Shown here in pieces: positions 26,120 to 54,429 of a stretch of DNA of 64,000 nucleotides. This stretch comes from Alphaproteobacteria bacterium (GTDB lineage Bacteria > Pseudomonadota > Alphaproteobacteria > MPNO01): the NCBI GenBank assembly GCA_965248835.1, contig CBDFLJ010000001.1, positions 160,001-224,000 on the forward strand, read 5' to 3'. Under the pieces are notes generated by a model. It had not been told where the DNA came from and did not search any database. It saw nothing but the letters and a program-made list of their open reading frames with translations. The translations under genes and the position numbers were made by a program. Each line of letters opens with the position of its first letter. The first letter of the stretch is position 1.

Positions 26120-26256
26120 GTGTCGAGGTGGTGCCCGATTCCGATCCACCCCGGCTCAGGCTAATTTTCGCCAATCCGGCCTATGCCAACTACACGTGCG
26201 ATCCCGAGGACGCCCATATTGTCGGCAAGGTGCTGTGGACCTTGAGACGTGTGTGA
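26120..26256 (+). pseudogene. C-terminal fragment of an S24-family repressor
   Basis: DPPRLRLIFANPAYANYTCDPEDAHIVGKVLWTLRRV, paralogous to the end of 35395-36017. Confidence 0.75.
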
Positions 26257-32355: not shown

Positions 32356-32538
32356 TGATCAAAATCGCCACAATCCGTATCTGGTTGCGAGCTTATGAGG
32401 CCACGGCCTAATCCGCCAAGGCTGCCCACCCCGGAGGATTACGAATCATATGCTCACAGCTGCGCCCCACTTTGAATCCGCGTGATTCCCAATAGATTCC
32501 CAATCACAAACTCTTTGCCACACTCTAAACATGAAAAA

Positions 32539-32565
32539 CCCCTGAAAATATTGTATTTTCAGGGG
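32539..32565 (-). terminator. intrinsic terminator-like hairpin after the tRNA fragment
   Basis: CCCCTGAAAATA-TTG-TATTTTCAGGGG, 12-bp stem, followed by a T-run on the minus strand. Confidence 0.7.
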
Positions 32566-32571
32566 CTTAAT

Positions 32572-32617
<46 letters not shown>

Positions 32618-35179: not shown

Positions 35180-35394
35180 GTTCTTGGAAACCCTCAAATC
35201 CCGGGCGAGCTTCTTGATCGGAACGCCCTTCACCAGATGATCCCGACGGATCCGCGCAATCGTCTCCACAACCAGCATCTCCCCCCACCCCGTCCGTCCA
35301 ATGACGAGGTGTCTTCATGGACACAAACCAAGGGGGGTCAATTTTGGATGCCGATCACCCCCAATAGGGGGTCAATTTTCCACGCTTAACAACA
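35180..35394 (-). mobile_element. IS21-family left end with istA start, cut by the IS3
   Basis: Terminal TGTTGTTAAGCG, repeated AAAATTGACCCCC; MLVVETIARIRRDHLVKGVPIKKLARDLRVSKN from 35278. Confidence 0.78.
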
Positions 35395-36017
35395 TCTCGG
35401 TCCGGATGGGCCGCAACGTCGCCTATCTCCACCAGTTCCTCAGCCGCGGTCAGCCCAGGGTGCTGGGCTACAAGGACAGCGAGATGCTCGCCGAGATGCT
35501 CGGCTGCGACGCGGACGAGCTCCGCCACGACACAGTGCCCAGGCGAAAGCAATCGAAGAGAAAGCGCCGCCCGGCCCCGGCCGAGCTTCCCGGCGTGCCG
35601 CTCTCGAGCGTGCCCGAGATGGAGGTCGAGGCCTCCGCGGGGCCGGGCGCGCTCGCCGACGAGTTCGTCATCGAGAAGGCGCGCTGGTTCCTGCCCGAGG
35701 GGATGATCCGCTACGAGGGCGATGCGAGCCCGGACGATCTCCGCATACTCAGGGCGCGGGGAGATTCGATGGAGCCCGAGATGCGCGAGGGCGACCGGCT
35801 CAAGGTCGACGTCGCCCGGCGGCTACCGGCTACCGGGGAGATGTTCGTCTTATGGGACGGCGCCGGTCTCGTCGTCAAGCGCATCGATCATGTGCGCGAC
35901 GCCGACCCGCCCCGGCTCCGGCTGAAATCCACGAATCCGGACTATGACGACTATACCTGCGATCCGAGGGAAGCCCACATCGTCGGAAAGGTGCTGTGGA
36001 CCGTCAAACGAGTCTGA
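35395..36017 (+). pseudogene. phage-type HTH/S24 peptidase repressor, 5' end truncated by IS21
   Basis: GRNVAYLHQFL.RG.PRVL, RGDSMEP, VVKR and IVGKV. Confidence 0.8.
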
Positions 36018-36839: not shown

Positions 36840-39800
36840 ATGAGTGTTCCGATCGACGAGATTAGCATCCACGTCAACCCCTTTGTGACGCGGCTAATCC
36901 GGCTCCAGCAAGACGGTAAGGAGGCAATCAGCGGCCCCGCGAACTGGCGTGAGCCGCCATTGCTCGACATCGCTACCGACTCCAACGATGCCATCGATAC
37001 GCTCCTAAAGGCGATGTGCCCATCGCCTGGGGACGCGCCTCATCGGGGTCGATGGCACTGGCTGATCGGTTCACCGGGAAACGGGAAGTCCGCCAAGCTC
37101 GGCCTGCTCGCTCGCCGCTTGCTAGAGCGCCGCTACGAGATTGTCTCCGAAGACGGCGTGGTGATCGGGGAAAGCGACGCGGACTGGCTACCGTACCTGC
37201 TCGAGGTCCGCGAAGAGGGAAAGCCCTACAGGTTTGCCTACCTCGTGCAGGATGCCTCCGTCGTCCGGAACCCCTTCGGTGCTGTCTGCAATCCTGCGGA
37301 AGATCTCGCGGCCGTTCTCAGGCTAGCTGCCGCGCGCGGTACGTCCCTTCTGGTGTGCACGAACTGGGGCGTACTACAGCGCCTCTTTGACCTGGGGCAC
37401 ACGGACCGAGGGGTGCGAGAGGAGCCCTGGTTTCGCGCCGTGAGCGGGGCAATTCAGAAGAGTGAGAGCGGCGTGACAGTCCGCGCGGGTGGCAGCACTT
37501 CCGGCGAGAAGACGGTCTTCGACGAGCTGGAGGTCACGTACGAATTCCTCGATAACCGTAGCCTGCTGGTCAACAGTGACGTCTTTGAACGCCTCTTCGA
37601 GAAGGCGACCGTTGAACAGAATTGGGATGCATGCTCCGGCTGCCCCTCCATGTCGTTGTGCCCCTTAAAGGCCAACCGAGACGATCTTGCGTCGGACGGT
37701 GTTCGCCGTAACGTCCTCGACATCCTGCGAAGAGCAGAGGTGCTGGACGGCCAGATCATCGTTTTCCGCGAGGCCGTGGCGCTCCTTTCCGTGCTACTGG
37801 CCGGATGCCCAGATGACCACGGGGGCGGTACGCCCTGCGAGTGGGTCCACGACCAGGTGCAAGGCAACAGGCTCTTCAACCTACTCGCTCGTCGAGTTCC
37901 TTCGATCCTGTTCGGGGCCACGAGATCACACGGCCTCGAAGGCCCTGAACGCCACAGCCCGGGTACGATAGCCAGTCGGCGTGACCAGATCTCCGCGCTG
38001 GAGGCAATCGATGGCTTACTCTGTGGCACGTCGCCCGTCCGTCAGGCACTCGCCGCCGTGACGCGGTCCGGAGAGCTGTCCACAGACGTCGGCGTCGAGC
38101 GGTTGCTGGGGCCGGATGGCGCGATTCCAGCTCTCGACCCGTCGATTGAGCCTCGACATGCCGTCGAACTGGACGAGTTCGTCGCGATCGCTACCTCTGC
38201 CCGATCCGCCGATGTGTCAGGAGACAAGTCTTCTTCCCCCGGGATGCGAGCGATCGAGGAACACTGTCTACGGGCTTGGGAGGAAATCTTCGACGCGATC
38301 GCCGCGAAAGGTGATCCAGTGACCGGTCAAGACCTTTACTTTTGGGCACGCCGCTGGCAGACGACTTGCCTCGCTTGGATCGCGGCTGTGACACGTGGCC
38401 TGACGGCGCTTCAGCCGGAGTTGGACAACTACCTTGCGTTCCTCAAGACACATGGAGAGTCGGCTGGGCGACTGGCCACGATAAAGAAGCTTGAGGACGT
38501 CTTAGAGCCCTTCCGGAAAGTTCTTGAATCGGAAGAATCGTTTGTGATTCTGTGCTGGGCATCCGGTTTACAGGAGGAAGCCCGATGTGGACTGCGGAAC
38601 ACCGCCGCGCGGCGGAGCGTCGCGGACTTCGCTATCCGAGTGATCTGACCGACGCCGAGTGGGCGCTGATCGCGCCAATGATCCCGCCTGCCAAGCGCGG
38701 CGGGCGCAAGCGCTCAGTCGACGTGCGCGAGGTTCTGAACGGCATCTTCACCGTGCTGTCCACGGGCTGCCAGTGGAATGCACTGCCCAAGGATCTGCCG
38801 CCGAAGTCGACGGTGTACGACTATTTCGATCTATGGGAGTGGGATGGCACGCTGGAGCGGATCCATCATGAACTCTACGTCGCGGTGCGCGATGAGGAAG
38901 GACGCGAAGCCAGCCCGTCGGCCGCGGTCATCGACAGCCAGAGCGCCAAGGCGGCGCAAAAAGGGGGGCGTCGATCGACGATCAAGGCTTCGATGCGGGC
39001 AAGAAGGTCACCGGTCGCAAGCGGCACATCATGGTCGACACGCTCGGCCTGATGCTGGGCATCGTGGTGCATTCCGGCGACGTTCAGGATCGCGACGGTG
39101 CCCACGAGCTCTTGCGCCGCACCCGGCGACGGTTCCCATTCATCGAGGTGATCTACGCCGACGGCGGCTATCAGGGACCGAAGATGGCCGCGACTGTCGC
39201 CAAGACCGGGGGGTGGCGGCTCGAGATCGTCAAGCGCAACGACGTGCCCCGCTTCGAGGTGCTGCCAAAGCGTTGGATTGTCGAACGCACCTTCGCCTGG
39301 ATCAGCCGCAACAGGCGCCTCGCTCGCGACTTCGAACGTCACGTTCGATCCGTCGTCGCCTTCATCCGACTCGCCATGATCCGCATCATGCTGCGCAGAC
39401 TCGCCGCAACCCACTCACCATAGATTCAAACTTTCCGGATCGGCTCTTAGAGAAGTTGCTCGCTCCTCGAGAACTCAACGGTGACAGTGACGTGCACGTC
39501 GAACTGGCGACGTCTCTCTGGCTAACGGGTCGATGGGCTGAGTTAGAGTTCAGACCCCGCCTCCAACACGACGGTGCCAGCGACAGTAACGCCTTGCTCG
39601 TCAAGATGAGCGAGTTCCATCCATTCGTCGTCACCGCAGAGACGTTTACATGGCTAAGTCGACAACACGAGCTGAATCTGAGCGACCTGTCGTTCAACCC
39701 GGACGTCTTGGAGTCGCTCCGCCGAACACAGGCCCAAGCGGCTGCCGCGAGCCAATATTCCGTACAAGATGATGACGTCGCAATAGTCATAGTCGACGAA

Positions 39801-39857
39801 CAGGGTACCGAGCACCGGTTCGAAAGAACGCGGGGATTCCTCCTCGAAGCGGAGTAG
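36840..39857 (+). pseudogene. DptF/DndF-like P-loop ATPase (about 690 aa reconstructed), interrupted by an IS5
   Basis: GSPGNGKS, VQDAS, CTNWGVL and CSGC....CPLKAN; excising the IS gives in-frame EDVL-EKLL. Confidence 0.7.
38505..39446 (+). mobile_element. IS5-family element (DUF4096 type, programmed frameshift)
   Basis: IRs GAGCCCTTCCGGAAAGTT / GAGCCGATCCGGAAAGTT; TSD TTA; YPSDLTDAEW, AAAAAAGGGGGG slippery site and RWIVERTFAW. Confidence 0.92.
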
Positions 39858-39863
39858 CTGTAG

Positions 39864-41387
39864 ATGGGCAGGATCGAGAACGAGCCGGCGCTTCCAGAGT
39901 GCCTCGGTAGCAAGTCTTTGGTGTTCGCTCCGACGGCGGGGATGAGACTCGCACCGGAAGTGCTTGTGTTCGAGTTATTCCGCGAACTGGGCTACGGAGA
40001 CTCGCGAAACGCCGTCGAAACGAAAGCCCAAGAATTCTCGGACGTAGTCGATACTCCGTCCTTGTCCAAGGCAGAGCGACTTCTACTCGCGACCTGTCGG
40101 GGACGGCAGAAGAAGACGAGGGCGCGGAGAAGCGAGTTCTTCTACGCCCCACCGTACCTTGGGCTCTCTCGCCATGCCTGGCTCCGAAAGCGGACTGATA
40201 GGACCATGCGCGACTACTTCCTCGGTGGTCCTTTGGCCCACCAGGAAGCGCTTGGGAATTTCGACAAGGACCTCGTAGTTCGGGCGCTCGTGGGTCATCG
40301 CAGCGCACGTGTCGTGAAGGAGTCGCCGGGTAAGGAGATCCTGTCGTTGCTGGCTCTCGAGGAGCGTGCTGATCCGCTTCCAGACGCTGTCCTTGACTAC
40401 CTCACGAATGCGGTTTCTGACGCTCGTAGCGCGCCGCTGGCCTTCGGTCGGCACACCGATCTCTTGGCATCCATCCTGACCGAGGACTTTCTCGAACTCT
40501 GCTGCTTGGAAGCGAGGATCGCACGCCGTGAGTGGCTCTTTTTGCTAATCGCGTTCCTTAGGGTTGCAACAACTGTGTGGATGCTCGCCCACCTGCGTAT
40601 CACGATAATGGTGCGGGACTGGGTGCTCTCCGCTGCTCTGAAGCAAGCAGCACCAGCGGTAGACGAGATGCTCAGTGCGATCTGCAAGCGCCACGAAGGA
40701 GTGCTTCACCCGTCATCGTCGCCGACTCGCGAGGTGTTCGAGCACGTTGAGACGTACATGCGCGCCCGCGTGGAGCTCCGACTCCTGGTGCGGAAAATCA
40801 AGATGATGAACGCCGAATGCTTCACAGCCGCGACTGGAGAGGTCAAGACGCTGTCTCTTGATCGGCGGGGCGCGGGCTTCATTACGCTTGGCGATCTGCT
40901 AGTTCTCGCCCAGAACTCCGATTGGTCGACGGTCGTGGACGGGCAAACGCTGCGTCAGTGGCTCACTCGGGAGGCCGAGAAATACCCAGCATGGCGTTCG
41001 CCGCGAACGCGAGGTCAGGGCAAGAACATCGACGAGTTCATCCGGGTCCTCTATCGATCCGCAGACGACGATTCGGGCAGTGGCCTGCTCATCAGGTGTC
41101 CAGAAACGACTACGAAGATCGTTCCCGGCCATCGCCTGCTCCAGCTGTTTACGTTCCTCGCCGCGCGAGCCAAGTGCCGGTCACGGGGAAAGGAAGGAGG
41201 CAAGCTGGTACTGCGGGACATCGAGCAGCACCTCTATGACTACGGGATTGACTTCCGCTCCAGTTCCTTTGGACGTCCCCTGCTCATAGAGAAGCTGATG
41301 GAAGGAGGGTTTCTCGTGGGGAGCCCTGATGCCGGGGAGAGCGCGGAGGTGCTCGACACGGTTGGAGCGGCGAGGTCAGCCGCATGA
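39864..41387 (+). CDS. DptG/DndG-like protein
   Basis: 507 aa; C-terminal wHTH-like HLYDYGIDF...L...G.LVGSPDAGE resembles the DptG SDSGDA end; lies between the F-like and H-like genes. Confidence 0.6.
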   Translation: MGRIENEPALPECLGSKSLVFAPTAGMRLAPEVLVFELFRELGYGDSRNAVETKAQEFSDVVDTPSLSKAERLLLATCRGRQKKTRARRSEFFYAPPYLGLSRHAWLRKRTDRTMRDYFLGGPLAHQEALGNFDKDLVVRALVGHRSARVVKESPGKEILSLLALEERADPLPDAVLDYLTNAVSDARSAPLAFGRHTDLLASILTEDFLELCCLEARIARREWLFLLIAFLRVATTVWMLAHLRITIMVRDWVLSAALKQAAPAVDEMLSAICKRHEGVLHPSSSPTREVFEHVETYMRARVELRLLVRKIKMMNAECFTAATGEVKTLSLDRRGAGFITLGDLLVLAQNSDWSTVVDGQTLRQWLTREAEKYPAWRSPRTRGQGKNIDEFIRVLYRSADDDSGSGLLIRCPETTTKIVPGHRLLQLFTFLAARAKCRSRGKEGGKLVLRDIEQHLYDYGIDFRSSSFGRPLLIEKLMEGGFLVGSPDAGESAEVLDTVGAARSAA

Positions 41388-44300
41388 GGATCCTGTCACG
41401 AGTACTGAGCGATCTCGCCGCGAAGCACGTCGCGGCGGTTCGGTCCGAGGAGCGCGATTGCAGATTGATCTTCCCTGGGCTCACGGAATCGCTTGCAGTT
41501 GAGCTGCACGAGGAGTTGCGGCGCCGAGTAGCCGCAGGTGCCGACGGAAGCGCCTCTGGCATCCCAGTCTACCTGGCACTTGATTACCCGGGATCGCGTT
41601 TCGGTCCTGACAAGTCGAAGGGCTGGCTGCACTACGAGGCCGTGACGAGTGTTCGGCAGGGCAGTTTCGTCACCGTCTGCATGCCGAAGGTCCTTCCGAA
41701 GCTCCATGACTCGATCCGTGGGACTGGGAGCCCTATTCGCGGATTGACGTTTGCCGACGAGTGGCCGTGGAAGGACGGCGGCGTGGAAGCCTTTCGCTTC
41801 AGCGGGCCGGTCCTTGAGGCCATCCTGGACATGTGGACGGCCGACACAGCGTCCCGCCGATGGATCAGGGAAATAATCCTTGAGGGGCTGCTCCCAGCTA
41901 CAGCCCCGCTACGAGACGCGATCCGTGTTTCCCTGCTGTTGGAGGGGATCCTGGGGTCCTTCGAACCCGCGCTCTATCCGGAGCTCGATGACGTAGTCGA
42001 CAAGTTCTGCTTCCACTGCGGCATTCCGCGAGTGGTGTCTCGCGAGACAGTCAACCCGAAGGACTACGTCGATTCGGTCGTGAGCACCGCCAAGGCGCTG
42101 GAAGAGCAGAGAACGACAAACCCCGAGTTCCGCGACTACCTTGTGAACGAGGTAGCGGTGAGCACATTCGCGGCGCTCGACCCTGGTTCGCTTCAGCAGC
42201 TCAGGAGTTCACTCGACCTGCTATTGGACGGAGCACTCGAACTTGGAGCAGACAGCGGCCTGCTCGCGTATCGCGGTGGGCTCGGAAATGAGTCGAGTTC
42301 CGCGAGCATCGAGGCGTGGTCCGCGTTGGACGTGGACCGGCTACGGAAGCTCTTCGGCGTGGGTGAGCCGGACACAGTGCAGTGCACCGCATCTTTGCCG
42401 GAAGGCAAAGGTGTGGTGTCGACCGACGGGAAGCAAGTGGCCATCTTCGAGGGAGCGCCGCTCGCACTGAATATCGCAGTAAAGATCGGGACTGATCGTT
42501 TCGAATCCGGAGATTTCCAGATTCTATGCAAGCGACGTCAGCGCCAGCTCTACGAGCAGGAGTGCGACGAGGCGGAGTTCCAGTCAACCTTCAACGTACC
42601 GCCGAACGAGTTGCCCGGAACTCGGAACCGACACAGCTTGGTGGTTCAGCTCGTTCGATTTCAACAGATCGTGAGAGAAGCCCGCGTAGACGTCCACGTT
42701 TGCGGAACCGCGAGACCTGCTCTGTGCGTATTTGAGCCCGACTTCAATATCGTCGATCTCTTGGAGTCCGAACCGGACTCCACCGATTCAGAGTCGGTCA
42801 TGCTGACCTGTCGAGAGCCCGTACGGGCGCACGTGCTCGACTGGCGAGCAACGGACCCGTGCCGCGTGACCGCGGATGATGAGATCCTACCGCTGAATGT
42901 TGCCGAACATCCTGCCAACGGGGAGCCTGGTCCAACCCGGTACAATCTCCGAGAGGCGATTGACGTGGAGAGCTTCTCCGGCGCGCGAATAGACCTGCGG
43001 ATCGAAGCTTCAGACCTTGAGCGGGATGTGACGCTCTTTGGTGAGGACATCGAGCCTGGTGAGTTCACCCTCGAGGACGAGCTCCGAGTTGCCACTGCTG
43101 CAGCCAGCGCATCACGTCTACGCCGGGTTCTGCCGTTCTTCCGAGGCGACGGAGATTTCGTACTCCCGAAGCTTGGCGAGCTTGACGCCGCCTCCCGACG
43201 CCGCGTGGATCTCGGTCGGGTTTTCGAGGAGCCGGACGGGTGGAAGCCTGTGCTGGTCGATTTCGTTGAGGCTGCGGGGTGCGAAATCGACGCACTGGTC
43301 TCTCGGCCATTCTGGAGAACGACTGGGACGAGCCTGTCCTTCCTTGAGGACATGGAGCCGACCGACTCCTTCGACGCGGCTCTCGCGCAGTATGCCCGGT
43401 GCCGAGACACCGTCATCCAGATAGCGAGGAGCTACGTCCAGGAGTACGCCACGCCGTCAGAGCGACCCCTCTACATCGTCGCGCCGATCTATGTGGCGCG
43501 CGACGACGTGTCTATCGAGACCGCGATCTCGCAGTACCTCGACGCATACTCGGCCGTCTTGAACCTGCTCCTGGACGGTAGCTTGTCGCCGGGTGAGGTC
43601 TTTACGTTCGTCCACTTGGATTCGGTCGTGCTTGAGCGTTCTCGCGCTGATGAAAACCAGCTCGACCTACGAATTTCGCTGCTTGGCCCATGGCATCCGC
43701 TCGTCGTCGCGAAGCGCTTCATGGTCCAGCACTGGATCTACGCTGCGGCAGAGGAGAGCGGCCGCCTGGCGAAGCAGCACAGGCGGCTCGCGTCCCTGTT
43801 CGAGGGGGTGGATGGGTTCAGGGTGGTGCCGGGATTCGATGCTGACAGCCTCGGTCTGGACGTGTCGTTCGCCTTTCCCACATCCGATCCCGGGTGGCAC
43901 TTGGCGGTCGCCAGCAGTGCGTTCTCGGCCTTGGCGGGCAGCAGCCTCGGCAGCCTGCGTGGGTTTGGGGGAAAGCTTCGGCGTTCGCAGGGCCTCAGAT
44001 CGTCGCTCTACCTTGCGGGCACCGACCTTTGGAGCGAGAGCTTCGTTCGCAGTTTCCAACGCTCGCATCCCTCAAGGCGGCAGCTCGGGCTTCGCGTTAG
44101 TCGAGGGCTTGACGCCAGACCGGTGGTCGACTCTTGTGCGCGGCTGCTCGGTGACCAGCGGGCGCGGTCCGGTCGCCTTGGGGCGCTGCTGCCCGGTGGA
44201 ATCCACCTCTTCCTAGAAGAACGCCTCGACGAGCGCCAGCGGCTGCCGTGGCAACAACCGGCGGTGTTCGTCTACGAGGCGCTGCAGGACGCCCACTGCT

Positions 44301-46885
44301 ACGAGAACTTTCACCCCGACATTCTCTTGCTCCCGCAACGCGAAGAGGTGCGTCCGGCGTGGCTTCCGGGCAGGACCGACGAAGGCCTCGCGGTGCCCAG
44401 GGGACGCGATCGAGGCGCGGTGTTCTCCATGCCGCTCGTTGACCTAAGCACTGATCGCCATGGCCTCCCGGTGTCACGCATCCAGGAAAGTGGCGAGGCT
44501 GGCGTTGCTGAGCGTCACGTGGCCGAAGGTGCTCGCGAAGGTGACTTGCCTCCCGTGGGCGAGGGCTACCGCAGGGCGCTGGCGTCGATTGACGAGCTGG
44601 CAAGTCAGGTCCGCCCGCAACGACCCGCGCTCGTCCAGGAACTCGGCCTTCCACCGTCGCTTCGATGTGATTGGACCGTGCTTCCCGGGGCGCATGTCGA
44701 TGCCGGCGCGCTGGCAACCTACATCGCTGGTCGCGGTGCGGCAGAGGGAGAGGAACGGGCGTTGTGGGACTACCGGCTTGATGTCGGTCGGTCCGTGAGA
44801 AGCTACTTCATAGTTTGCAAAGTCCCGAAGTCCGTTCTGTCTTCGCTGACTGCGAAATCGCTGGCTCTCGGGCCCGAGGACGCGTCTTCGGCACTTCGAG
44901 AACTCGCCGAGGTGGGGTTCGCGGTCGGCGAGACGATGCGGTCTGGTAAGGCGGCGGTGGGTGTGCTCGGGGTCGTAGGAGCGCTCCGCCTTGCGCGAGC
45001 AGCATGGGCCGCTGGCGAGGCCAACGGGCGACGCTGGTGTACTGTCCTCCTACCAGTTGATTGTATCACGGACCTCCTGGTGGCTCCGCCCGACGTGGAA
45101 ACCCCGAGCAAGCGCACGGACTTACTCGCCATCAATCTTGCATGGAGGATCGAGGGGCCGCCAACATTGACGATTTCGCCATGTGCGGTCGAGTGCAAGT
45201 ACGTCTCGGAGACGTATGCCGCCAGCACAGTCCAAGACGCCCTTGGGCAAGCCGAGGCGACCTACCAGGTCGTGTGGCAGCTCCTCTCGCTGGCGCAATC
45301 GGAAGCCGGTATGCACGCGCGACTTGCGCTCTGCCACATACTGCGGTTCGGCCTCCGGCTCCTCGCCGCGCGGGGAGACGCGACGATGGCCGACGAGCAA
45401 GCCATCCTTGACGCGACACTCTCGGGATCGTTCGACCTCTCGCCACCTGTCGCCCCCAGCCTTCTGGTGACCACGAGTTGCGGCACGACCGGTGATGGCG
45501 CCGTCGATGTGCGTGCGGGTGGCTGGTGGGTGGGGCTAACGGCTGATTGCTGGCCCAGGGAGATCCCGTCACTCTCGAACCCGCTAGTTCGGCAGCTGTC
45601 AAAAGTGTTCCCCGCGATCGAGCCGCACACAGGCGACGGTAGCACTAGGAAGGGCGGGGAGGCGACGAGAACGAGTTCGCCAAACAGTGCCGCGGGTACC
45701 CGTGGTCTTCGTGAATCGGCAGGGCAGGAAGACGGTGCACCGTCGGCCGCTGAACTCCATGGCGAAGACGATGCAGAACGGTCTTCCCGCGCCGAAGCAC
45801 CCGAGACGCCGTCCAAGTCGGACGAACGGGAAGTGGAGGCAGGGGCCGCGGCGGCCTCCGACAACCTCATCCACCCGGTCTTCAAAGGTTTCGTAGGTAA
45901 CAGGGCTGCGGCCGAAGCACTGAGTATCCAGCTCCGGTACGTGGAACAAACGGGAACCACGGCGATCAGATCCGTCGGCTTGTTCGGTCCCAAGAGTACC
46001 GGGAAGACTGAACTCTCCCGACGATTGGCGGGCGCATTGGGGGTGCCCTATCTCCCGCTTAGCGAGACGGGCCTGCGCGATATCGACCAGCTTGCTGACC
46101 GAATGCAGGAGCGTGCCCGCGAAGCCGGGAAACCAATGACTGTGGTCGATCACCAAGGCGGGCAGGCGGTCCTCCGCTCGCCACCGATTCTCGTATTCAT
46201 TGACGAGGTGCACCAACTCAGCGCAAGGGTTCAGGATACGCTCCTGCCTGTCTTGGAAGCCGATGACCGGATGTTACGCGGCTCCCGAGTGATCATCGAC
46301 GCGCGAGATGTCAGCTTCGTCATTGCGACAACCGATTGGGGCAAGCTCCGCGAGGCGTTTCGCAGCCGAGTGCGCGCCGTCATGCTCGAGCCGTACAACA
46401 CTGATGAGGTTGTCCGGATGTTGCGGTATCGCATCGAGTCTGCCTCTCGAGATCACGACGCGGGCGCCGACGTCGACCCATCAGTTGGGCAGCTCAGCGA
46501 AGATGCGCTAGTCGCGATTTCCACTGCCGCGAGGGCGGTGCCCCGGGTGGCGCTAGACCTCCTTCGCGAGATCGGCATGGCACTTCGGATCCGCATCTGC
46601 GGACCAAGTGTGGACGCAGTCTGGGGGCACCTCCAGAAGATGGTGCCGTGCGACCGGCAAGGGCTGACGAGCCGCGACCGCAAATACCTGCGCATCGTGG
46701 CGAACCGCGGCCCGATCGGGCTGGACAACATCGCCACGGAACTGGGCACAGACCGGTCTAATGTGGAGGGAGCAATCGAGCCGTTTCTCGCCCAAATGGG
46801 CTGGGTTCAGTGGGGTTCAACCGGGCGGACGCTGACCACCAGCGGGAGACGACTCGTGGCGCAGCTCCCGCACCCAGACGGGTGA
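41384..46885 (+). CDS. 1833-aa DptH-like protein with PD-(D/E)xK nuclease and C-terminal RuvB-type AAA+ domain
   Basis: GPWHPL; RTDLLAI...AVECK; low-complexity linker; GPKSTGKT, FIDEVHQL, ATT, FRSR, VPRVA and GLT..DR.YL...GPIGL...IEPFL. Confidence 0.8.
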   Translation: MRILSRVLSDLAAKHVAAVRSEERDCRLIFPGLTESLAVELHEELRRRVAAGADGSASGIPVYLALDYPGSRFGPDKSKGWLHYEAVTSVRQGSFVTVCMPKVLPKLHDSIRGTGSPIRGLTFADEWPWKDGGVEAFRFSGPVLEAILDMWTADTASRRWIREIILEGLLPATAPLRDAIRVSLLLEGILGSFEPALYPELDDVVDKFCFHCGIPRVVSRETVNPKDYVDSVVSTAKALEEQRTTNPEFRDYLVNEVAVSTFAALDPGSLQQLRSSLDLLLDGALELGADSGLLAYRGGLGNESSSASIEAWSALDVDRLRKLFGVGEPDTVQCTASLPEGKGVVSTDGKQVAIFEGAPLALNIAVKIGTDRFESGDFQILCKRRQRQLYEQECDEAEFQSTFNVPPNELPGTRNRHSLVVQLVRFQQIVREARVDVHVCGTARPALCVFEPDFNIVDLLESEPDSTDSESVMLTCREPVRAHVLDWRATDPCRVTADDEILPLNVAEHPANGEPGPTRYNLREAIDVESFSGARIDLRIEASDLERDVTLFGEDIEPGEFTLEDELRVATAAASASRLRRVLPFFRGDGDFVLPKLGELDAASRRRVDLGRVFEEPDGWKPVLVDFVEAAGCEIDALVSRPFWRTTGTSLSFLEDMEPTDSFDAALAQYARCRDTVIQIARSYVQEYATPSERPLYIVAPIYVARDDVSIETAISQYLDAYSAVLNLLLDGSLSPGEVFTFVHLDSVVLERSRADENQLDLRISLLGPWHPLVVAKRFMVQHWIYAAAEESGRLAKQHRRLASLFEGVDGFRVVPGFDADSLGLDVSFAFPTSDPGWHLAVASSAFSALAGSSLGSLRGFGGKLRRSQGLRSSLYLAGTDLWSESFVRSFQRSHPSRRQLGLRVSRGLDARPVVDSCARLLGDQRARSGRLGALLPGGIHLFLEERLDERQRLPWQQPAVFVYEALQDAHCYENFHPDILLLPQREEVRPAWLPGRTDEGLAVPRGRDRGAVFSMPLVDLSTDRHGLPVSRIQESGEAGVAERHVAEGAREGDLPPVGEGYRRALASIDELASQVRPQRPALVQELGLPPSLRCDWTVLPGAHVDAGALATYIAGRGAAEGEERALWDYRLDVGRSVRSYFIVCKVPKSVLSSLTAKSLALGPEDASSALRELAEVGFAVGETMRSGKAAVGVLGVVGALRLARAAWAAGEANGRRWCTVLLPVDCITDLLVAPPDVETPSKRTDLLAINLAWRIEGPPTLTISPCAVECKYVSETYAASTVQDALGQAEATYQVVWQLLSLAQSEAGMHARLALCHILRFGLRLLAARGDATMADEQAILDATLSGSFDLSPPVAPSLLVTTSCGTTGDGAVDVRAGGWWVGLTADCWPREIPSLSNPLVRQLSKVFPAIEPHTGDGSTRKGGEATRTSSPNSAAGTRGLRESAGQEDGAPSAAELHGEDDAERSSRAEAPETPSKSDEREVEAGAAAASDNLIHPVFKGFVGNRAAAEALSIQLRYVEQTGTTAIRSVGLFGPKSTGKTELSRRLAGALGVPYLPLSETGLRDIDQLADRMQERAREAGKPMTVVDHQGGQAVLRSPPILVFIDEVHQLSARVQDTLLPVLEADDRMLRGSRVIIDARDVSFVIATTDWGKLREAFRSRVRAVMLEPYNTDEVVRMLRYRIESASRDHDAGADVDPSVGQLSEDALVAISTAARAVPRVALDLLREIGMALRIRICGPSVDAVWGHLQKMVPCDRQGLTSRDRKYLRIVANRGPIGLDNIATELGTDRSNVEGAIEPFLAQMGWVQWGSTGRTLTTSGRRLVAQLPHPDG

Positions 46886-47592
46886 TGGGCGCCGGAGCGG
46901 TCGGCGTGGGATTTTCGAAATCGCGGCGACGGGAGTATCGGGATCGGGAGATCGTCAGGCGTTTGCTGTCGTGGTTTGACGACTACGGCCGTCAACTTCC
47001 GTGGCGGCACAGCACCATGGAGCCGTGGCAGGTGCTCGTGGTCGAGATACTGCTGCAGCAGACGCGCGCGGAGAGGATTGGCGCCTTTGTGCCAGCGTTC
47101 CTGGACGACTTCCCGTCGTTGCGTGCGCTGGCCGAAACCGACGAGCCAACGTTAGCTGAAAGGCTGGCGACACTAGGGCTGCAAAATCGGCGTGCGGGCC
47201 GGCTCGTTGCCCTAGCCGGTGTGCTACTGGCAAGGGACGGTCAGATCCCCAACTCCAAGCCGGAACTCGAATCGCTCCCAGGAGTCGGGCCCTACGTCGC
47301 TGCCGCGTACATGTCCACCGTCCTCGAACAGCCAGAGCCGATGGTTGACGTGAACATGGCACGGCTGATTGAGCGGCTCTACGGACCAAGGACGCTGGCA
47401 GATATCCGGTACGATCCGCACATTAACGGCATCGCCCACCGGTTGATCCACCTTGCAGCCCGACCCAAGGAGTTCAACTGGGCAGTGCTGGACCTCGGCG
47501 CCGCGCATTGCACGGCGCGGTCTCCATCGTGTGTCGGCTGCCCTCTACTAGAGGTTTGCCCTTTCGGTCGACCACGCGTCACGAGTGCTTGA
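46885..47592 (+). CDS. short HhH-GPD [4Fe-4S] DNA glycosylase (MutY/Mig-like)
   Basis: TGATG coupling; RQLPWR, EILLQQT, LPGVGPY, VDVN and C-x6-C-x2-C-x5-C; no MutY C-terminal domain. Confidence 0.88.
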   Translation: MGAGAVGVGFSKSRRREYRDREIVRRLLSWFDDYGRQLPWRHSTMEPWQVLVVEILLQQTRAERIGAFVPAFLDDFPSLRALAETDEPTLAERLATLGLQNRRAGRLVALAGVLLARDGQIPNSKPELESLPGVGPYVAAAYMSTVLEQPEPMVDVNMARLIERLYGPRTLADIRYDPHINGIAHRLIHLAARPKEFNWAVLDLGAAHCTARSPSCVGCPLLEVCPFGRPRVTSA

Positions 47593-49242
47593 GCCTGGTC
47601 TGGTGCGTCGAGCAGACGTAATGGCGGCTCGGAAAGCAGTGTCGATTTCGTCGAGTTGTGACCGTGCTGTACCCTTCACATTGGGCGTCGTGTAGAACCC
47701 ACCGTCAGGCTCGAAACGGCAAGCTGGGTCCTCCTCGACGAGGAGCAGGAACTGCCTAATCCGTGCTGCCACCGCGTGGGCAAACCGTGGGGGAACCGCG
47801 TTCGCGACTTGCGTATATTGCGGGACGTAGACTCCCGCACGCCTCCGCTCCGCCCCCGTCGTTCGGACGCCCTTGAACTCGAACCAGTCGGGGAAGGTCT
47901 GGAGACGAGCAACCTCTCGAACCGTGGGAATCCTATCCTCAGCGTGGTGGACGATATCGTCGGGAAGTGACGTGACCGTGAGCATCGGCCACTCGTCCGC
48001 GAGAAGCACGCGTTGCGATGCTTTCTTGGTGACGAGCTCGGGAAACTGCTCGCTGAACTGGCGGCGAAGCCACCCGCTGCTACACCGATGCTTTCGTGCT
48101 TCTGGCGAGCTCGTTGCAGCCGTACGAAGAAGCTGGAGTTTCCGAGCCACGTCGGGGCGATGCGAAGACGCCTCGTGGTTGAAGTACTCTTCCAATGTAG
48201 CCTCGCCTGCCGAGTCCATGATCCCGCCGTCGAGGTATTGCGACTGCAGAGCCCTCACTTCGCGGAGGAACCCGCTCGGACCATGCCTCCCATTTCGACG
48301 GTACGGCTGGCTCCAGCTCTTTCCGGTCCCGTAGGGCGGCGGTGTGCCCGCCAGATCGCTGAGGATCTCCTTGGCGGCAAGAGAAGACCCTGCCGGTACC
48401 GCCGCTCCCAGGAGCCGACCGTCGGTTGGTCGGCTGTGTGGACAGGCGACCGGGAATAGCAGCCGTGGCAAACTCTCGCATGCGCTGGGATGAACGAGGT
48501 CTCGACGGACTGCTACGAGCAACAGGCGTCGTCGGGTCTGCGGGACGCCGAGAGGTTCGCCGTGGACGATCTCAGCGTACACGTAGTACCCGGGGCGGTT
48601 CTTGCCCCGGCGAGAGAGTCCCAGGCCGATCTTGCGGATCAGGTCAGCGTGACGCTCCAACATGCCCAGGACGTTCTCCAAGATGGCAATGCGCGGTTGG
48701 ACGACACCGATGACTCGAATAGCTTCGTGGACGAGTAAGTTCCGCTCGTCGTCTGGGCACGCTTTGCCGGCGGACGAGAAGCCCTGGCACGGTGGGCCCG
48801 CCACGAGCAAGTCGATGCCGGCGGGGCGGCGCTTAAGCCACGTCCGCAGCCACCGGTCTGGCAGCACCTCGCGGATGTCGCCACCACGCATGTGACGCTC
48901 GAAGTCCTGAGGGAGCGCTTCCCGGTCCTTGAGCATTTGCTGTCGAGCCTCGGCCCGGTACGCCTTGCGCGCGCGCGTGGATGGGTCATCAGGTCGTTCT
49001 GGAAACACGCCTTCCAGCGTGTCGCTAAGGATGTTGTGCCGATACGTCCACTCCGCGTCGACTGAATACTCGTTGGCGAGCACGACGTCGAAGCCTGCTC
49101 GGCGTAGCCCCAGCGAGAACCCGCCCGCTCCCGCGAAGAGGTCAATGGCTGTCGGTACTCGGTGAAGGACAGCGGCGTCGCGTCCCGTGCGTCCACGCCC
49201 ACCGGTGCTGCTCTTCGCAGTGATCCTCTCTCGTCCTCCCAC
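47548..49242 (-). CDS. C5 DNA cytosine methyltransferase
   Basis: DLFAGAGG, GPPCQGFS, ENV, QTRRR, TVREVARLQTFPD and NAVPP. Confidence 0.95.
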   Translation of the reverse strand: MGGRERITAKSSTGGRGRTGRDAAVLHRVPTAIDLFAGAGGFSLGLRRAGFDVVLANEYSVDAEWTYRHNILSDTLEGVFPERPDDPSTRARKAYRAEARQQMLKDREALPQDFERHMRGGDIREVLPDRWLRTWLKRRPAGIDLLVAGPPCQGFSSAGKACPDDERNLLVHEAIRVIGVVQPRIAILENVLGMLERHADLIRKIGLGLSRRGKNRPGYYVYAEIVHGEPLGVPQTRRRLLLVAVRRDLVHPSACESLPRLLFPVACPHSRPTDGRLLGAAVPAGSSLAAKEILSDLAGTPPPYGTGKSWSQPYRRNGRHGPSGFLREVRALQSQYLDGGIMDSAGEATLEEYFNHEASSHRPDVARKLQLLRTAATSSPEARKHRCSSGWLRRQFSEQFPELVTKKASQRVLLADEWPMLTVTSLPDDIVHHAEDRIPTVREVARLQTFPDWFEFKGVRTTGAERRRAGVYVPQYTQVANAVPPRFAHAVAARIRQFLLLVEEDPACRFEPDGGFYTTPNVKGTARSQLDEIDTAFRAAITSARRTRPGSSTRDAWSTERANL

Positions 49243-49436
49243 TATTTCTTCTCTAATTTCCTGTTGTTCAGTGAGAAGGATCGCTGCAGCCGGTAACCCT
49301 CGTTGTCGAGGTGGTCCCTGATCAAGCGCGCCACCAGGGTGCTCTTCTTGAAGCCGCGTTCATCGCAGTACGCCTTGAACCGAACGTGCTCCTCCTGGTC
49401 CAGGAGCACCGTGATTTGGTACCTCTTCTCAGCCAC
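49242..49436 (-). CDS. small RHH/CopG-like regulator coupled to the MTase
   Basis: ITVLLD.EE..RFKAYC...GFKKSTLVARLIRDHL; its stop overlaps the MTase start. Confidence 0.7.
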   Translation of the reverse strand: MAEKRYQITVLLDQEEHVRFKAYCDERGFKKSTLVARLIRDHLDNEGYRLQRSFSLNNRKLEKK

Positions 49437-52050: not shown

Positions 52051-52295
52051 ACCGTTGCTGTGGGAGGAGATCGGTCGTGTGCGCGCATCGAACTCAGGGA
52101 ACGGCGGACGATTCCACGGCCTAACGGAACGGATACACTCGGGAAGGCCAACTCCGCCAGACCTGCACCATATTGCGCAGAACTTATAATGAATCCGCTT
52201 ACGGTATGCTTACGTCTTGCCATTAGCCGGCGCTCGCCGGCGAAGTTGGATATAAGAAAGCCCCTGAAAACTCCCTTGTTTTCATGGGCTTGATT

Positions 52296-52318
52296 TGGTT
52301 GCGGGGGTAGGATTTGAA
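52296..52318 (-). repeat. tRNA-fMet 3'-end copy (att-like), cut by the group II intron
   Basis: TGGTTGCGGGGGTAGGATTTGAA, one mismatch to 32573-32595; preceded by a related hairpin. Confidence 0.8.
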
Positions 52319-54421: not shown

Positions 54422-54429
54422 CCAGAGTG

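What the first reader, a model, noticed from the sequence alone, without database searches (positions are those of the whole stretch)
36840..49436. Candidate new restriction-modification-like defence system: DndFGH-like effector plus 5mC methyltransferase plus Mig-like glycosylase
Seen: four tightly coupled plus-strand genes (6-bp gap, ATGA overlap, TGATG overlap). They encode a P-loop/Cys-cluster ATPase, a 507-aa protein, an 1833-aa nuclease-ATPase and a short HhH-GPD glycosylase. They converge on, and overlap by 45 bp, a C5 MTase that is coupled to an RHH regulator. Known: DndFGH normally reads phosphorothioate marks laid by DndABCDE, and the order, sizes and motifs here resemble F, G and H. 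No dnd modification genes occur in the window. Inference: a Dnd-like restriction machine that uses 5-methylcytosine as its self mark, carried in an att-bounded island.
Basis: partly seen in the sequence, partly recalled or inferred. Interest (0 to 1): 0.9.

Follow-up and report, generated by a model that had tools for sequence, protein, structure and literature searches.

The report
Methylcytosine-coupled DndFGH-like restriction cassette
A cytosine methylase sits beside three proteins resembling the DndFGH DNA-cutting machine, a pairing seen in many bacterial phyla; it is probably an undescribed restriction system marking self DNA by methylation, though this copy is broken by a jumping gene.

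Summary
F (split by a 942-bp IS), G (507 aa), H (1833 aa) and a 235-aa HhH-GPD glycosylase are tightly coupled. They converge, with a 45-bp overlap, on a C5 methyltransferase.

The cassette is conserved. In 23 of 23 public loci with complete F-G-H and enough flank, a C5 MTase is adjacent, across many phyla.
- F is homologous to SspF (hhalign 93-96%).
- The G model matches solved DndG alone (Z 13.9).
- H has a methylase-like fold without the catalytic motif and a McrC-like PD-(D/E)xK nuclease homologous to SspH's.
- H ends in a translocase ATPase, DptH/HerA-like in most relatives but RuvB-like in this clade.

The genome has no DndC or DndD. The glycosylase alternates with Vsr in relatives, so it is the T:G-repair companion of the methylase, not an effector.

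Best reading: a DndFGH/SspFGH-type restriction machine whose self mark is 5-methylcytosine. Function is inferred, not shown. This copy is inactivated by the IS; IS-free alleles exist in public runs.

G and H match no PADLOC v2 model, and nine literature searches found no description. Verdict: new variant of a known kind.

The parts
32533..32595 (.). Left copy of a 63-nt direct repeat; its conserved part looks like a tRNA 3' end (att-like).
   Evidence: family D2, 78% identity to the copy at 52256-52318. No whole tRNA in the window. The tRNA-end likeness is my reading of the letters, not a tool result.
36840..38504 (+). F, N-terminal 555 codons. P-loop protein (Walker A GSPGNGKS at residue 77) with an invariant Cys cluster (C265, C268, C274, C323, C333). 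Homologue of SspF.
   Evidence: PADLOC SspF hits E 3e-5. hhalign to SspF.
38505..39446 (+). IS5/IS427-type insertion sequence that splits F. TTA target duplication at 38502-38504 and 39447-39449.
   Evidence: (DUF4096, E 7.9e-29). Contig depth over this part is about 330-750 against about 2-23 on the flanks in X1/X2. IS-free joints are seen in runs X2 and X6.
39450..39857 (+). F, C-terminal 135 codons, in frame with the N-terminal part once the IS and one TTA are set aside.
   Evidence: (73% identity to the C-terminus of intact L004 F)
39864..41387 (+). G, 507 aa, structural homologue of DndG. No sequence-level match to any library.
   Evidence: no family. Model. DndG 7exx_A Z 13.9.
41384..46885 (+). 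H, 1833 aa multidomain protein. The first ~540 residues are unassigned.
   Evidence: ESM Atlas gave no usable hit for residues 1-540.
44018..44830 (+). H residues ~879-1149: Rossmann/SAM-methyltransferase-like fold, probably catalytically inactive.
   Evidence: VIA-align Z up to 10.0 (8uzd_A, 169 aligned) and 9.4. LlaBIII 4xqk_B Z 7.2. No (D/N/S)PP(Y/F/W) motif anywhere in H.
44852..45613 (+). H residues ~1157-1410: PD-(D/E)xK nuclease domain. D1226, D1246, E1270 and K1272 are invariant in 39 of 39 aligned relatives.
   Evidence: McrC 6hz4_M Z 8.1, 150 aligned. hhalign to the SspH nuclease region 86.4%, E 4.7e-6.
45881..46882 (+). H residues ~1500-1833: RuvB-like AAA+ ATPase (Walker A GPKSTGKT at 1535) with a RuvB C-terminal winged helix.
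   Evidence: Pfam RuvB_C 1.2e-13 and AAA 2.5e-10. NCBIfam RuvB 92.6 bits, below its cut-off of 282. PDB RuvB 1in4_A E 5.6e-16.
46885..47592 (+). MutY/Mig-type HhH-GPD glycosylase without the MutY C-terminal domain. Inferred T:G mismatch repair partner of the MTase.
   Evidence: PADLOC PDLC03398, E 1.4e-26; MutY catalytic domain E 9e-35; 1kea_A E 4e-27. Alternation with Vsr.
47548..49242 (-). C5 cytosine DNA methyltransferase. Motifs I (FAGAGG), IV (PPCQ), VI (ENV), VIII (QTRRR) and X (NAVP) are present.
   Evidence: Pfam PF00145 E 2.8e-42, TIGR00675 above its cut-off, motifs.
49242..49436 (-). 64-aa putative ribbon-helix-helix protein upstream of the MTase. Not found in relatives.
   Evidence: Pfam ParG E 2.5e-4, borderline. 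No tblastn hit in the loci at E 1e-5.
52256..52318 (.). Right copy of the 63-nt att-like direct repeat.

Best explanation
This is a restriction-modification-like defence cassette of the DndFGH/SspFGH type in which the self mark is 5-methylcytosine instead of a phosphorothioate.

Shown:
- The gene order and coupling.
- Homology of F to SspF.
- Structural likeness of G to DndG.
- The domain make-up of H.
- Invariable adjacency of a C5 MTase in relatives.
- Alternation of the glycosylase with Vsr.
- Disruption of F by an IS.

Inferred, by analogy with published DndFGH and SspFGH work:
- The MTase methylates a host motif.
- F (a P-loop protein with a Cys4-5 metal cluster), G (a DndG-like winged-helix DNA binder) and H assemble on DNA.
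- H's ring ATPase translocates the complex. This ATPase is DptH/HerA-like in most relatives and RuvB-like here.
- H's PD-(D/E)xK domain nicks or cuts DNA that lacks the mark.
- Marked DNA stalls or silences the machine, perhaps through G and the inactive methylase-like domain of H.

The MutY/Mig-type glycosylase, replaced by Vsr in other lineages, repairs the T:G mismatches left by 5mC deamination in the methylated host genome.

In this genome the restriction arm is most likely dead, because F is split by the IS. The MTase and the glycosylase look intact.
For: Linkage
- Of 68 related loci examined, 63 hold an H match and 45 also have F and G upstream of H.
- 23 have complete F-G-H with at least 1.4 kb upstream of F and 1.6 kb downstream of H. 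In 23 of 23 a C5 MTase lies next to the cassette.
- My tally of the rows gives three arrangements: 15 upstream co-directional, 3 upstream divergent, 5 downstream convergent. The named MAGs and isolates come from many phyla.
- MTase and G divergence track each other (r = 0.71 over 120 non-independent pairs).

Kinship with FGH systems
- PADLOC SspF hits in 12 of 13 F members; hhalign.
- G against DndG: Z 13.9, with the next best at 5.5.
- H nuclease region against SspH: 86.4% probability.
- McrC-like nuclease and methylase-like fold.
- The C-termini of HerA-type relatives hit PADLOC DndH (E 1e-21 to 3e-30). Solved DptH 7es4_A is their best PDB match (E 6.5e-18).

No phosphorothioate machinery
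- DndC and DndD are not found in the 100%-complete genome.

The host genome is probably itself methylated
- A T:G repair gene accompanies the cassette. Of 44 loci with at least 900 bp after H: glycosylase only 29, Vsr only 6, glycosylase fragment plus Vsr 1, neither 8.
- Vsr was confirmed by Pfam in 5 of 5 ORFs tested.

Catalytic residues are conserved.

Published behaviour of the analogues (passages read)
- SspFGH damages unmodified DNA and needs all three genes (PMC8092258).
- DndFGH is a 2:2:1 translocating nickase whose ATPase is repressed by the mark (PMC11662687).
Against: - Nothing here is experimental. There is no methylome, no restriction assay and no expression data.
- Rakesh et al. 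2024 (PMC10853773; abstract, passages and sections 19-22 read) argue that DndFGH is often decoupled from its modification genes and may act as a standalone system. Adjacency therefore need not mean that the MTase supplies the self mark.
- MTases have been exchanged. L004 has F, G and H 72-74% identical to the window's but an MTase only 31% identical. L011's MTase is about 31% identical to all others.
- No segment of F, G or H diverges in step with the L004 swap. Any reading of the mark is thus not visibly tied to one MTase lineage.
- G shows no sequence similarity to SspG or to any PADLOC model (0 of 15 members).
- The window's H matches no PADLOC DndH or SspH model.
- Structural Z scores of 7-10 for the methylase-like fold are in the range the tool calls middling.
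- 8 of 44 loci show neither glycosylase nor Vsr. Some of these end soon after the cassette.
Confidence: 0.65

Rival explanations
1. There are two independent modules that merely sit together. One is a standalone FGH-type counter-invader system that needs no modification partner. The other is an ordinary orphan or leftover Dcm-type methylase with its T:G repair gene (Dcm-Vsr or MTase-Mig).
For: Rakesh et al. 2024 (PMC10853773) describe DndFGH as commonly decoupled from DndABCDE and as lacking an inbuilt modification module. MTase lineages were swapped without matching change in F, G or H. MTase-Vsr pairs are common units on their own (recalled, not tested here).
Against: A C5 MTase is adjacent in 23 of 23 assessable loci, across distant phyla and in three different arrangements. 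After the swap in L004 the replacement is again a C5 MTase, now with Vsr. Start/stop overlaps tie the glycosylase to H in the window. In the fetched stretches of four bona fide SspFGH loci no C5 MTase was found; this is a weak control because the flanks are short.
Confidence: 0.15
2. The logic is inverted or Pgl-like. The MTase marks incoming or replicating foreign DNA, or the FGH machine attacks 5mC-bearing DNA, so methylation is the trigger rather than the protection.
For: H carries a methylase-like fold that could bind modified bases. Two relatives carry HNH genes beside the cassette (L019 4040-4888, L023 15931-16392). Their resemblance to modification-dependent HNH nucleases is my own conjecture; Pfam returned HNH only.
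Against: A resident MTase with intact motifs would methylate the host chromosome and make a 5mC-dependent nuclease suicidal. The regular presence of T:G repair (glycosylase or Vsr in 36 of 44 loci) fits a chronically methylated host genome. Both characterised analogues attack unmodified DNA (PMC8092258 and PMC11662687, passages read).
Confidence: 0.07
3. The cassette serves the mobile element itself (partition, transfer, or addiction/post-segregational killing) rather than defence against phages.
For: It lies in a lower-GC mosaic of IS elements, an integrase fragment and att-like repeats. G is not found in 40 relatives of the host. Ring translocases of the FtsK/HerA and RuvB kinds also serve DNA segregation and recombination.
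Against: An MTase plus a nuclease that is toxic without it is the classical restriction-modification logic, and addiction is a by-product of that logic, not an alternative. No hit to G was found in 72,556 plasmid records or 50,697 phage records. The nuclease residues are invariant in 39 of 39 sequences.
Confidence: 0.05

Closest known systems
DndFGH / DptFGH (phosphorothioate-based restriction module of Salmonella Cerro 87 and E. coli B7A)
   Same: - A three-gene F-G-H operon with similar sizes.
- The G model matches solved DndG (7exx_A, Z 13.9).
- H has the same C-terminal order as described for DndH in PMC10853773 section 21: inactive methylase-like fold, then REase, then ring ATPase.
- HerA-type relatives of H match PADLOC DndH and solved DptH in the ATPase.
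   Different: - The partner is a C5 MTase, not DndABCDE. DndC and DndD are not found in the genome.
- Sequence similarity is below the PADLOC models: F hits DndF in 1 of 13 members at E 0.0045, G in 0 of 15, and the window's H not at all.
- The window's H ends in a RuvB-like AAA+ module instead of HerA/FtsK.
- A T:G repair gene is attached.
SspFGH (single-strand phosphorothioate-based restriction module, Vibrio anguillarum FF-93)
   Same: - F is homologous to SspF over most of its length, including the P-loop and the Cys cluster.
- The H nuclease region aligns with that of SspH at the same position in a protein of the same size.
   Different: - No similarity of G to SspG.
- No sspBCD neighbours. 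DUF4007 (SspC) is not found in the genome, though that search rang in no control genome.
- A C5 MTase stands where sspBCD would be.
Dcm-Vsr, and M.MthTI with Mig.MthI (C5 methylase paired with a T:G mismatch repair enzyme)
   Same: A C5 MTase accompanied by either a MutY/Mig-type glycosylase or Vsr, which exclude each other among relatives. The glycosylase matches 1kea_A, titled 'Possible G-T mismatches repair enzyme' (E 4e-27). I recall this entry to be Mig.MthI.
   Different: Here the pair is embedded in, and translationally coupled to, a 9-kb FGH effector operon. By sequence the glycosylase is nearer to the MutY catalytic domain (E 9e-35) than to 1kea. Its substrate is untested.
MADS (methylation-associated defence system, mad1-mad8, Pseudomonas aeruginosa)
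   Same: A multigene, methylation-based system with an ATPase-nuclease module. The PADLOC mad8 model hits the HerA-type C-termini of H relatives (E 1e-13 to 6e-17). The ESM Atlas gave a MAD7 cluster as a lead for G (score 0.93).
   Different: MADS uses m6A and has eight genes (PMC13662399, passages read). The window's H gives only E 0.026 to mad8. No Pfam MAD7 hit in 15 G members or 6 distant relatives. I do not know whether this Pfam copy holds PF26611.
ATP-dependent restriction enzymes with a nuclease on a motor (McrBC, Type ISP such as LlaBIII)
   Same: The H nuclease domain resembles McrC (Z 8.1). The methylase-like fold also aligns with the LlaBIII MTase region (Z 7.2). Both couple an NTP-driven motor to a PD-(D/E)xK nuclease.
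   Different: There is no sequence similarity, and the motor classes differ (GTP-dependent AAA+ McrB; SF2 in Type ISP). McrBC attacks methylated DNA, and Type ISP enzymes methylate with the same polypeptide.

Membership tests
DndFGH (DptFGH) | Co-directional F-G-H operon with proteins of about 500-700, 450-500 and 1700 aa | tested here: met
   F 690 aa (read across the IS), G 507 aa, H 1833 aa, with a 6-bp gap and an ATGA overlap. The same holds in 45 related loci.
DndFGH (DptFGH) | G has the DndG fold (triple winged helix) | tested here: met
   Model pLDDT 87.5, pTM 0.91. Solved DndG 7exx_A: Z 13.9, rmsd 5.7, 343 of 440 residues aligned, and the next best is Z 5.5. There is no sequence-level match even at E 10.
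DndFGH (DptFGH) | F, G and H match the family's sequence profiles (PADLOC DndF, DndG, DndH) | tested here: not met
   The window's F, G and H have no Dnd hit at E up to 10. DndF is hit by 1 of 13 F members at E 0.0045. G members have no hit, 0 of 15. Only the HerA-type relatives P0055, P0057 and P0058 hit DndH, and mostly in the ATPase.
DndFGH (DptFGH) | H architecture: inactive methylase, then REase, then HerA/FtsK ATPase (PMC10853773, section 21) | tested here: inconclusive
   A methylase-like fold (Z 7-10) and a McrC-like nuclease (Z 8.1) stand in that order. The ATPase is RuvB-like in the window and HerA/DptH-like in relatives. H residues 1-540 were not modelled.
DndFGH (DptFGH) | Works with DndABCDE phosphorothioation | tested here: not met
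   TIGR03183 (DndC) and TIGR03185 (DndD) give no match in the genome, which is 100% complete with 9.5% contamination. None is seen beside the cassette in the related loci.
SspFGH | F homologous to SspF | tested here: met
   PADLOC SspF is hit by 12 of 13 members, best E 1.4e-9. hhalign gives 95.8% (285 columns) and 92.6% (493 columns).
SspFGH | G homologous to SspG | tested here: not met
   hhalign probability 0.4% and 0.6%. The SspG alignment has only 3 sequences.
SspFGH | H homologous to SspH | tested here: inconclusive
   Only the nuclease region aligns: 47.6% with 14 sequences and 86.4% (E 4.7e-6, 201 columns) with 39 sequences. One weak PADLOC SspH hit in P0058 (E 0.0064).
SspFGH | Linked to sspBCD | tested here: inconclusive
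   PF13182 (SspC) gives no match in the genome, but the search rang in no control genome. DndC-like PAPS reductase is absent.
C5 cytosine DNA methyltransferase (PF00145) | Conserved motifs I, IV (PCQ), VI (ENV), VIII (QxRxR), X | tested here: met
   PF00145 E 2.8e-42. TIGR00675 scores 124.8 bits against a cut-off of 100.65. Motifs are located.
MutY/Mig-type HhH-GPD glycosylase | HhH-GPD fold, catalytic Asp, 4Fe-4S Cys ligands; a short form without the MutY C-terminal domain | tested here: met
   PF00730, PF00633 and PF10576. MutY catalytic domain E 9e-35 and 1kea_A E 4e-27. LQQT, VDVN, LPGVG and the C-x7-C-x2-C-x5-C pattern are present in the 235-aa protein. T:G specificity was not tested.
RuvB (Holliday junction motor) | Scores above the equivalog cut-off; stand-alone protein of about 330 aa | tested here: not met
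   NF000868 scores 92.6 bits against a cut-off of 282, and TIGR00635 scores 83.9 against 299. The module is the C-terminus of an 1833-aa protein. A separate RuvB-like match lies elsewhere in the genome (L002, 36% identity). So it is RuvB-like, not RuvB.
IS5 family (IS427-like) insertion sequence | Transposase domains, terminal inverted repeats, short target duplication | tested here: met
   DUF4096 E 7.9e-29. The inverted ends match at 19 of 31 positions, best near the tips, with a TTA duplication. Empty-site joints that skip 945-954 bases are seen in other runs. The subgroup name is recalled, not tested.

The most novel reading that the evidence does not exclude
FGH-type machines are modular readers whose self mark and motor are both exchangeable. 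The same F-G-H chassis that reads phosphorothioate in Dnd and Ssp systems has been re-paired with base methylation (5mC). In one clade its HerA/FtsK pump has been replaced by a RuvB-type AAA+ ring.

The DndG-like subunit, together with the dead methylase-like domain of H, would be the sensor that stalls the motor on marked DNA. This sensor would not depend on the exact motif, because MTase lineages were swapped without matching changes in F, G or H.
Probability: 0.35. Interest if true: 0.85.

Novelty: new variant of a known kind. Interest (0 to 1): 0.72.

Why it matters
How DndFGH and SspFGH tell self from non-self is still disputed. Only a fraction of sites carry phosphorothioate, and a recent reappraisal holds that FGH is often decoupled from modification altogether.

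A sister family that is tied to a plain C5 methylase gives a much more tractable handle on that question.
- The tie is strong: 23 of 23 assessable loci, across many phyla.
- 5mC can be mapped genome-wide.
- 5mC can be installed or removed at will on test DNA.
- The MTase swaps seen in nature suggest experiments on whether the machine reads a motif or only the mark.

The family also extends the 'captured translocase' theme from HerA/FtsK to a RuvB-type AAA+ ring.

It offers a clean natural example of a Mig-type glycosylase and Vsr as interchangeable guards against 5mC deamination.

The family is rare. The G profile finds 277 clusters (at 50% identity) among 1.84 billion representative proteins. 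That rarity may explain why it has escaped the catalogues I could test.

Tried and rejected
Glycosylase as a restriction effector (base-excision restriction): rejected. It is missing from 14 of 44 assessable loci. In 6 of these, and also in L004 where only an 84-aa remnant is left, a Vsr gene stands by the cassette instead.

A specificity segment in F, G or H that changes with the MTase: looked for with sliding identity of the window against L004 (swapped MTase) and L005 (same MTase type). L004 is closer almost everywhere. A few windows where L005 is equal or slightly closer (G 331-507, F 31-180, H 1681-1740) are too weak to interpret with three sequences.

MAD7 lead for G from the ESM Atlas (score 0.93): no Pfam hit in 15 of 15 G members at E up to 10. 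There was none in 6 distant G relatives either, and no PADLOC hit in 8 distant relatives apart from one stray TniQ match. I could not check whether this Pfam copy holds PF26611, so the lead stays untested rather than refuted.

Foldseek against the PDB gave no match at E up to 0.001 for either model. The matches reported come from VIA-align.

Profile searches of the PDB by sequence found nothing for F (one hit at E 0.99) or for G. For H they found only RuvB/Clp.

ESM Atlas for H residues 1-540: no usable hit.

Complex prediction of F residues 1-450 with G: verdict 'no answer' (scores 0.41, 0.00, 0.00). This is evidence neither for nor against binding.

The look-up of sequencing runs: no RNA holder listed. 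Nothing can be said on expression.

tblastn of G against 72,556 plasmid and 50,697 phage records: no match.

L021, L022 and L101, which matched only H's C-terminus, are ordinary cellular ruvB genes. L024-L045 matched only the P-loop part. All were left out of the tallies. L016, L017, L020 and other short or broken loci were counted only where the stated flank rules allowed.

Literature: nine searches found no paper that pairs an FGH-type module with a C5 MTase, or that reports a RuvB-type DndH. The phrases 'DndFGH-like', 'SspFGH-like', 'DptFGH-like', 'DndH-like' and 'DptH-like' occur in no held paper. The supplementary datasets of PMC10853773 and Table S2 of PMC8092258 may list such neighbourhoods, and I could not see them. 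DefenseFinder and PADLOC's system rules could not be run; only PADLOC-DB v2.0.0 HMMs were used.

Full report
What is in the window

The host sequence up to about 25 kb has 65-72% G+C. From about 26 kb to the end of the window it has 56-65%. Within the lower-GC part, the plus strand carries four coupled genes:
- F: 36840-38504 and 39450-39857
- G: 39864-41387
- H: 41384-46885
- a glycosylase: 46885-47592

The glycosylase overlaps the 3' end of a minus-strand C5 methyltransferase (47548-49242) by 45 bp. A 64-aa ORF with a borderline ParG/RHH hit abuts the MTase start.

F is cut by a 942-bp IS5-type element (38505-39446). The element has a DUF4096 transposase (E 7.9e-29), inverted ends and a TTA duplication. 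The two F parts are in frame, and intact relatives are 694 aa.

Contigs of public runs show the IS part at depths of hundreds against single or double figures for the flanks. They also show joints that skip 945-954 bases exactly at the IS, in a second run of the same sample and in a run of another study. The insertion is therefore a recent, strain-level event, and empty-site alleles exist.

The proteins one by one

- MTase. It has all the C5 motifs (PF00145 E 2.8e-42; motifs I, IV, VI, VIII and X).
- Glycosylase. It is a 235-aa MutY/Mig-type HhH-GPD enzyme with the catalytic Asp, the HhH motif and four Cys ligands, but without the MutY C-terminal domain. It matches the MutY catalytic domain at E 9e-35, 1kea_A at E 4e-27, and PADLOC 'Type II nicking endonuclease' PDLC03398 at E 1.4e-26.
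- F. It has a Walker A loop, a QDASV stretch, a CTN(R/W)G stretch and five invariant cysteines.
- G. It matched nothing in Pfam, NCBIfam or PADLOC.
- H. It matched only in its last 330 residues, which form a RuvB-like AAA+ module with the RuvB C-terminal winged helix. That module scores well below the RuvB equivalog cut-offs.

Relatives and their neighbourhoods

A word-indexed search found only 58 relatives of H.
- 54 of them are 48-100% identical. Most carry AAA+ and RuvB_C domains; a minority have no precomputed Pfam hit.
- 4 of them (P0055-P0058) are about 30% identical over the first three quarters of H and carry TrwB/HerA-type domains instead.
- In three of these four that I scanned, the C-termini hit PADLOC DndH (E 1e-21 to 3e-30). 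For P0058, the one searched against the PDB, solved DptH 7es4_A is the best match (E 6.5e-18).

Scans of one genome per species and of JGI metagenome contigs gave 42 and 48 loci. I examined 68 of these 90 (L004-L023 and L056-L103). The rest matched only the P-loop of the ATPase.
- 63 of the 68 hold an H match.
- 45 also have F and G upstream of H.
- 23 have complete F, G and H with at least 1.4 kb before F and 1.6 kb after H.
- In 23 of those 23 a C5 MTase lies directly beside the cassette. My tally of the rows gives 15 upstream and co-directional, 3 upstream and divergent, and 5 downstream and convergent, as in the window.

The named records come from Acidobacteriota, Nitrospirota, Planctomycetota, Chloroflexota, Clostridia, Deltaproteobacteria, Burkholderia, Janthinobacterium and others. 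Only the window, L004 and L005 (both Bryobacterales MAGs) have the RuvB-type H. All other complete H proteins are HerA-type.

A profile of 45 G sequences finds 277 clusters at E up to 0.001, and 124 at 1e-30, among 1.84 billion representatives. The family is therefore real but rare. G is not found in 40 genomes of the host's genus, family and order, which fits horizontal acquisition.

Is it DndFGH/SspFGH-like?

- F. hhalign of the F family against SspF gives 95.8% (E 7e-9, 285 columns). With a deeper alignment it gives 92.6% (E 4.5e-7, 493 columns). PADLOC SspF is hit by 12 of 13 F members.
- G. It shows nothing against SspG. Its AlphaFold model is confident (pLDDT 87.5, pTM 0.91). That model has a single outstanding match among 48,161 PDB representatives: the solved structure of DndG (7exx_A), with Z 13.9, 343 residues aligned and coverage of model residues 8-500. 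The next best match is Z 5.5, and SspB appears at Z 4.1.
- H. The model of residues 540-1480 has pLDDT 80 and pTM 0.84.
  - Residues ~879-1149 adopt a Rossmann SAM-methyltransferase-like fold. The best Z scores are 10.0 and 9.4, and nearly all of the 50 rows listed in each search fall on this range. They include Type ISP and Type I R-M methylase modules.
  - Residues ~1157-1410 adopt a McrC-like PD-(D/E)xK fold (Z 8.1).
  - H has no (D/N/S)PP(Y/F/W) motif, so the methylase-like domain is probably inactive.
  - D1226, D1246, E1270 and K1272 are invariant in 39 of 39 sequences.
  - The nuclease region aligns with the corresponding region of SspH at 86.4% (E 4.7e-6).

This order (dead methylase, REase, ring ATPase) is what Rakesh, Aravind and Krishnan describe for DndH. 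Their description of DndF as a P-loop kinase with an optional Zn-chelating insert, and of DndG as a triple winged helix related to SspB, also fits (PMC10853773, sections 19-21).

The family is thus a third, divergent branch of FGH-type modules. It does not reach the PADLOC Dnd profiles. I therefore file it as FGH-like by architecture and structure, not as a member of either named system.

What the modification partner is

The host genome (100% complete by markers, 9.5% contamination) has no DndC or DndD. It also gave no DUF4007 match, but that last search rang in no control genome.

The constant neighbour is a C5 MTase. MTase and G identities rise and fall together (r = 0.71 over 120 pairs, which are not independent). 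There are clear exceptions:
- The window and L005 share an MTase type (68% identical) that is only about 30% identical to all others.
- L004 has F, G and H 72-74% identical to the window's, but its MTase is 31% identical to the window's and 41-45% identical to the HerA-type group.
- L011 has yet another MTase.

In L004 the glycosylase is reduced to 84 aa. An IS66 transposase follows it, and the new MTase comes with a Vsr gene. Sliding identity shows no segment of F, G or H that diverges in step with that swap.

What the glycosylase is for

I took the 44 loci with at least 900 bp after H.
- 29 have the glycosylase and no Vsr.
- 6 have Vsr and no glycosylase.
- 1 (L004) has the glycosylase fragment plus Vsr.
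- 8 have neither.

The Vsr ORFs were confirmed by Pfam in 5 of 5 tested (E 1e-28 to 1e-30). The two T:G repair enzymes are alternatives. The simplest reading is that either one protects a methylated host genome against 5mC deamination. This is the known Dcm-Vsr logic; the MTase-Mig pairing is recalled. It also argues that the MTase acts on the host chromosome, as a self mark should.

Mechanism proposed, and its limits

The proposal rests on analogy with published work, read as passages. SspFGH damages unmodified DNA, is toxic without SspBCD and needs all three genes (PMC8092258). DndFGH is a 2:2:1 complex with translocation-coupled nicking whose ATPase is repressed by the mark (PMC11662687).

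I propose that F, G and H form a DNA-tracking nuclease that spares 5mC-marked DNA. The ring ATPase (HerA/DptH-like or RuvB-like) would act as the motor. G and the dead methylase-like domain would be candidate readers.

All of this is inference. No methylome, activity or expression data exist here. In this genome F is split, so the restriction arm is probably inactive.

The main rival is that the FGH module is standalone, as Rakesh et al. argue for DndFGH, and that the MTase-repair pair is a separate unit. The 23 of 23 adjacency across phyla and arrangements, and the replacement of one C5 MTase by another in L004, speak against it. Only an experiment can settle it.

Setting

The cassette lies between two copies of a 63-nt repeat (32533-32595 and 52256-52318, 78% identical) whose conserved part looks like a tRNA 3' end. 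The same segment holds an IS3-family transposase, an S24 repressor-like gene and a RecD2-type helicase. An integrase fragment lies just outside it. No tRNA gene is in the window.

Novelty

G and H match none of the 5027 PADLOC v2.0.0 models, and F matches SspF only weakly. Nine full-text searches found no paper that describes an FGH-type module tied to a C5 MTase, or a RuvB-type DndH.

The closest statement in print that I saw concerns a different module: Rakesh et al. report cytosine methylases beside CxC-ABC-ATPase/DndE systems. Supplements, DefenseFinder and REBASE could not be consulted.

I rate it a new variant of a known kind.

Noticed in passing
window 27404-27949 and 29267-32104 (+), with 28497-29219 (-) between: A ResIII/DEAD-type helicase gene appears to be split by a second IS (DUF772 transposase). 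The 945-aa downstream part has no Pfam hit. It may be another broken defence gene in the same island.
   Followed up: partly
window 26131-26256 and 35892-36017: A 126-nt direct repeat (77% identical). The second copy is the 3' end of the S24-peptidase repressor-like gene (35301-36017), so a partial duplicate of that gene lies 9.8 kb upstream.
   Followed up: no
window 49822-52050 (+) and 53989-54885 (-): A full RecD2/YrrC-type helicase lies inside the att-like bounded segment. A truncated tyrosine-integrase gene lies just outside its right repeat.
   Followed up: partly
window 38505-39446; runs X1, X2, X5, X6: The IS that splits F has a contig depth of about 330-750 in the likely source sample, against about 2-23 for the flanks. 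It also occurs in runs of other studies, so it is a very abundant element in those communities.
   Followed up: partly
L019 4040-4888 (+); L023 15538-15822 and 15931-16392 (+): HNH-endonuclease genes with a shared, unassigned N-terminal region sit directly beside the cassette in two distant relatives. They could be an extra effector or a modification-dependent nuclease.
   Followed up: no
L096 104-1183 (+): A stand-alone 359-aa RuvB-like protein on a 1.3-kb metagenome contig is 40% identical to H residues 1496-1821. That is closer than cellular RuvB (25-36%). It may represent the source of the captured motor.
   Followed up: no
L004 15475-19651: The same stretch holds a remnant of the glycosylase (84 aa), an IS66-family transposase, and then a different C5 MTase with Vsr. 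This is a caught-in-the-act replacement of the modification and repair genes.
   Followed up: yes
L087 124-1371 and 10685-11851: This relative has two C5 MTase genes, one on each side of the F-G-H cassette.
   Followed up: no
L020 9959-13961; L092 9379-14335: These are decayed or rearranged copies. In L020, H is in three frames without F or G, but the glycosylase is kept. In L092 an MTase fragment directly abuts an N-terminally truncated H.
   Followed up: no
window 49242-49436 (-): The small RHH-like ORF upstream of the MTase has no counterpart in any related locus at E 1e-5. If it is a controller protein, it is specific to this lineage.
   Followed up: partly
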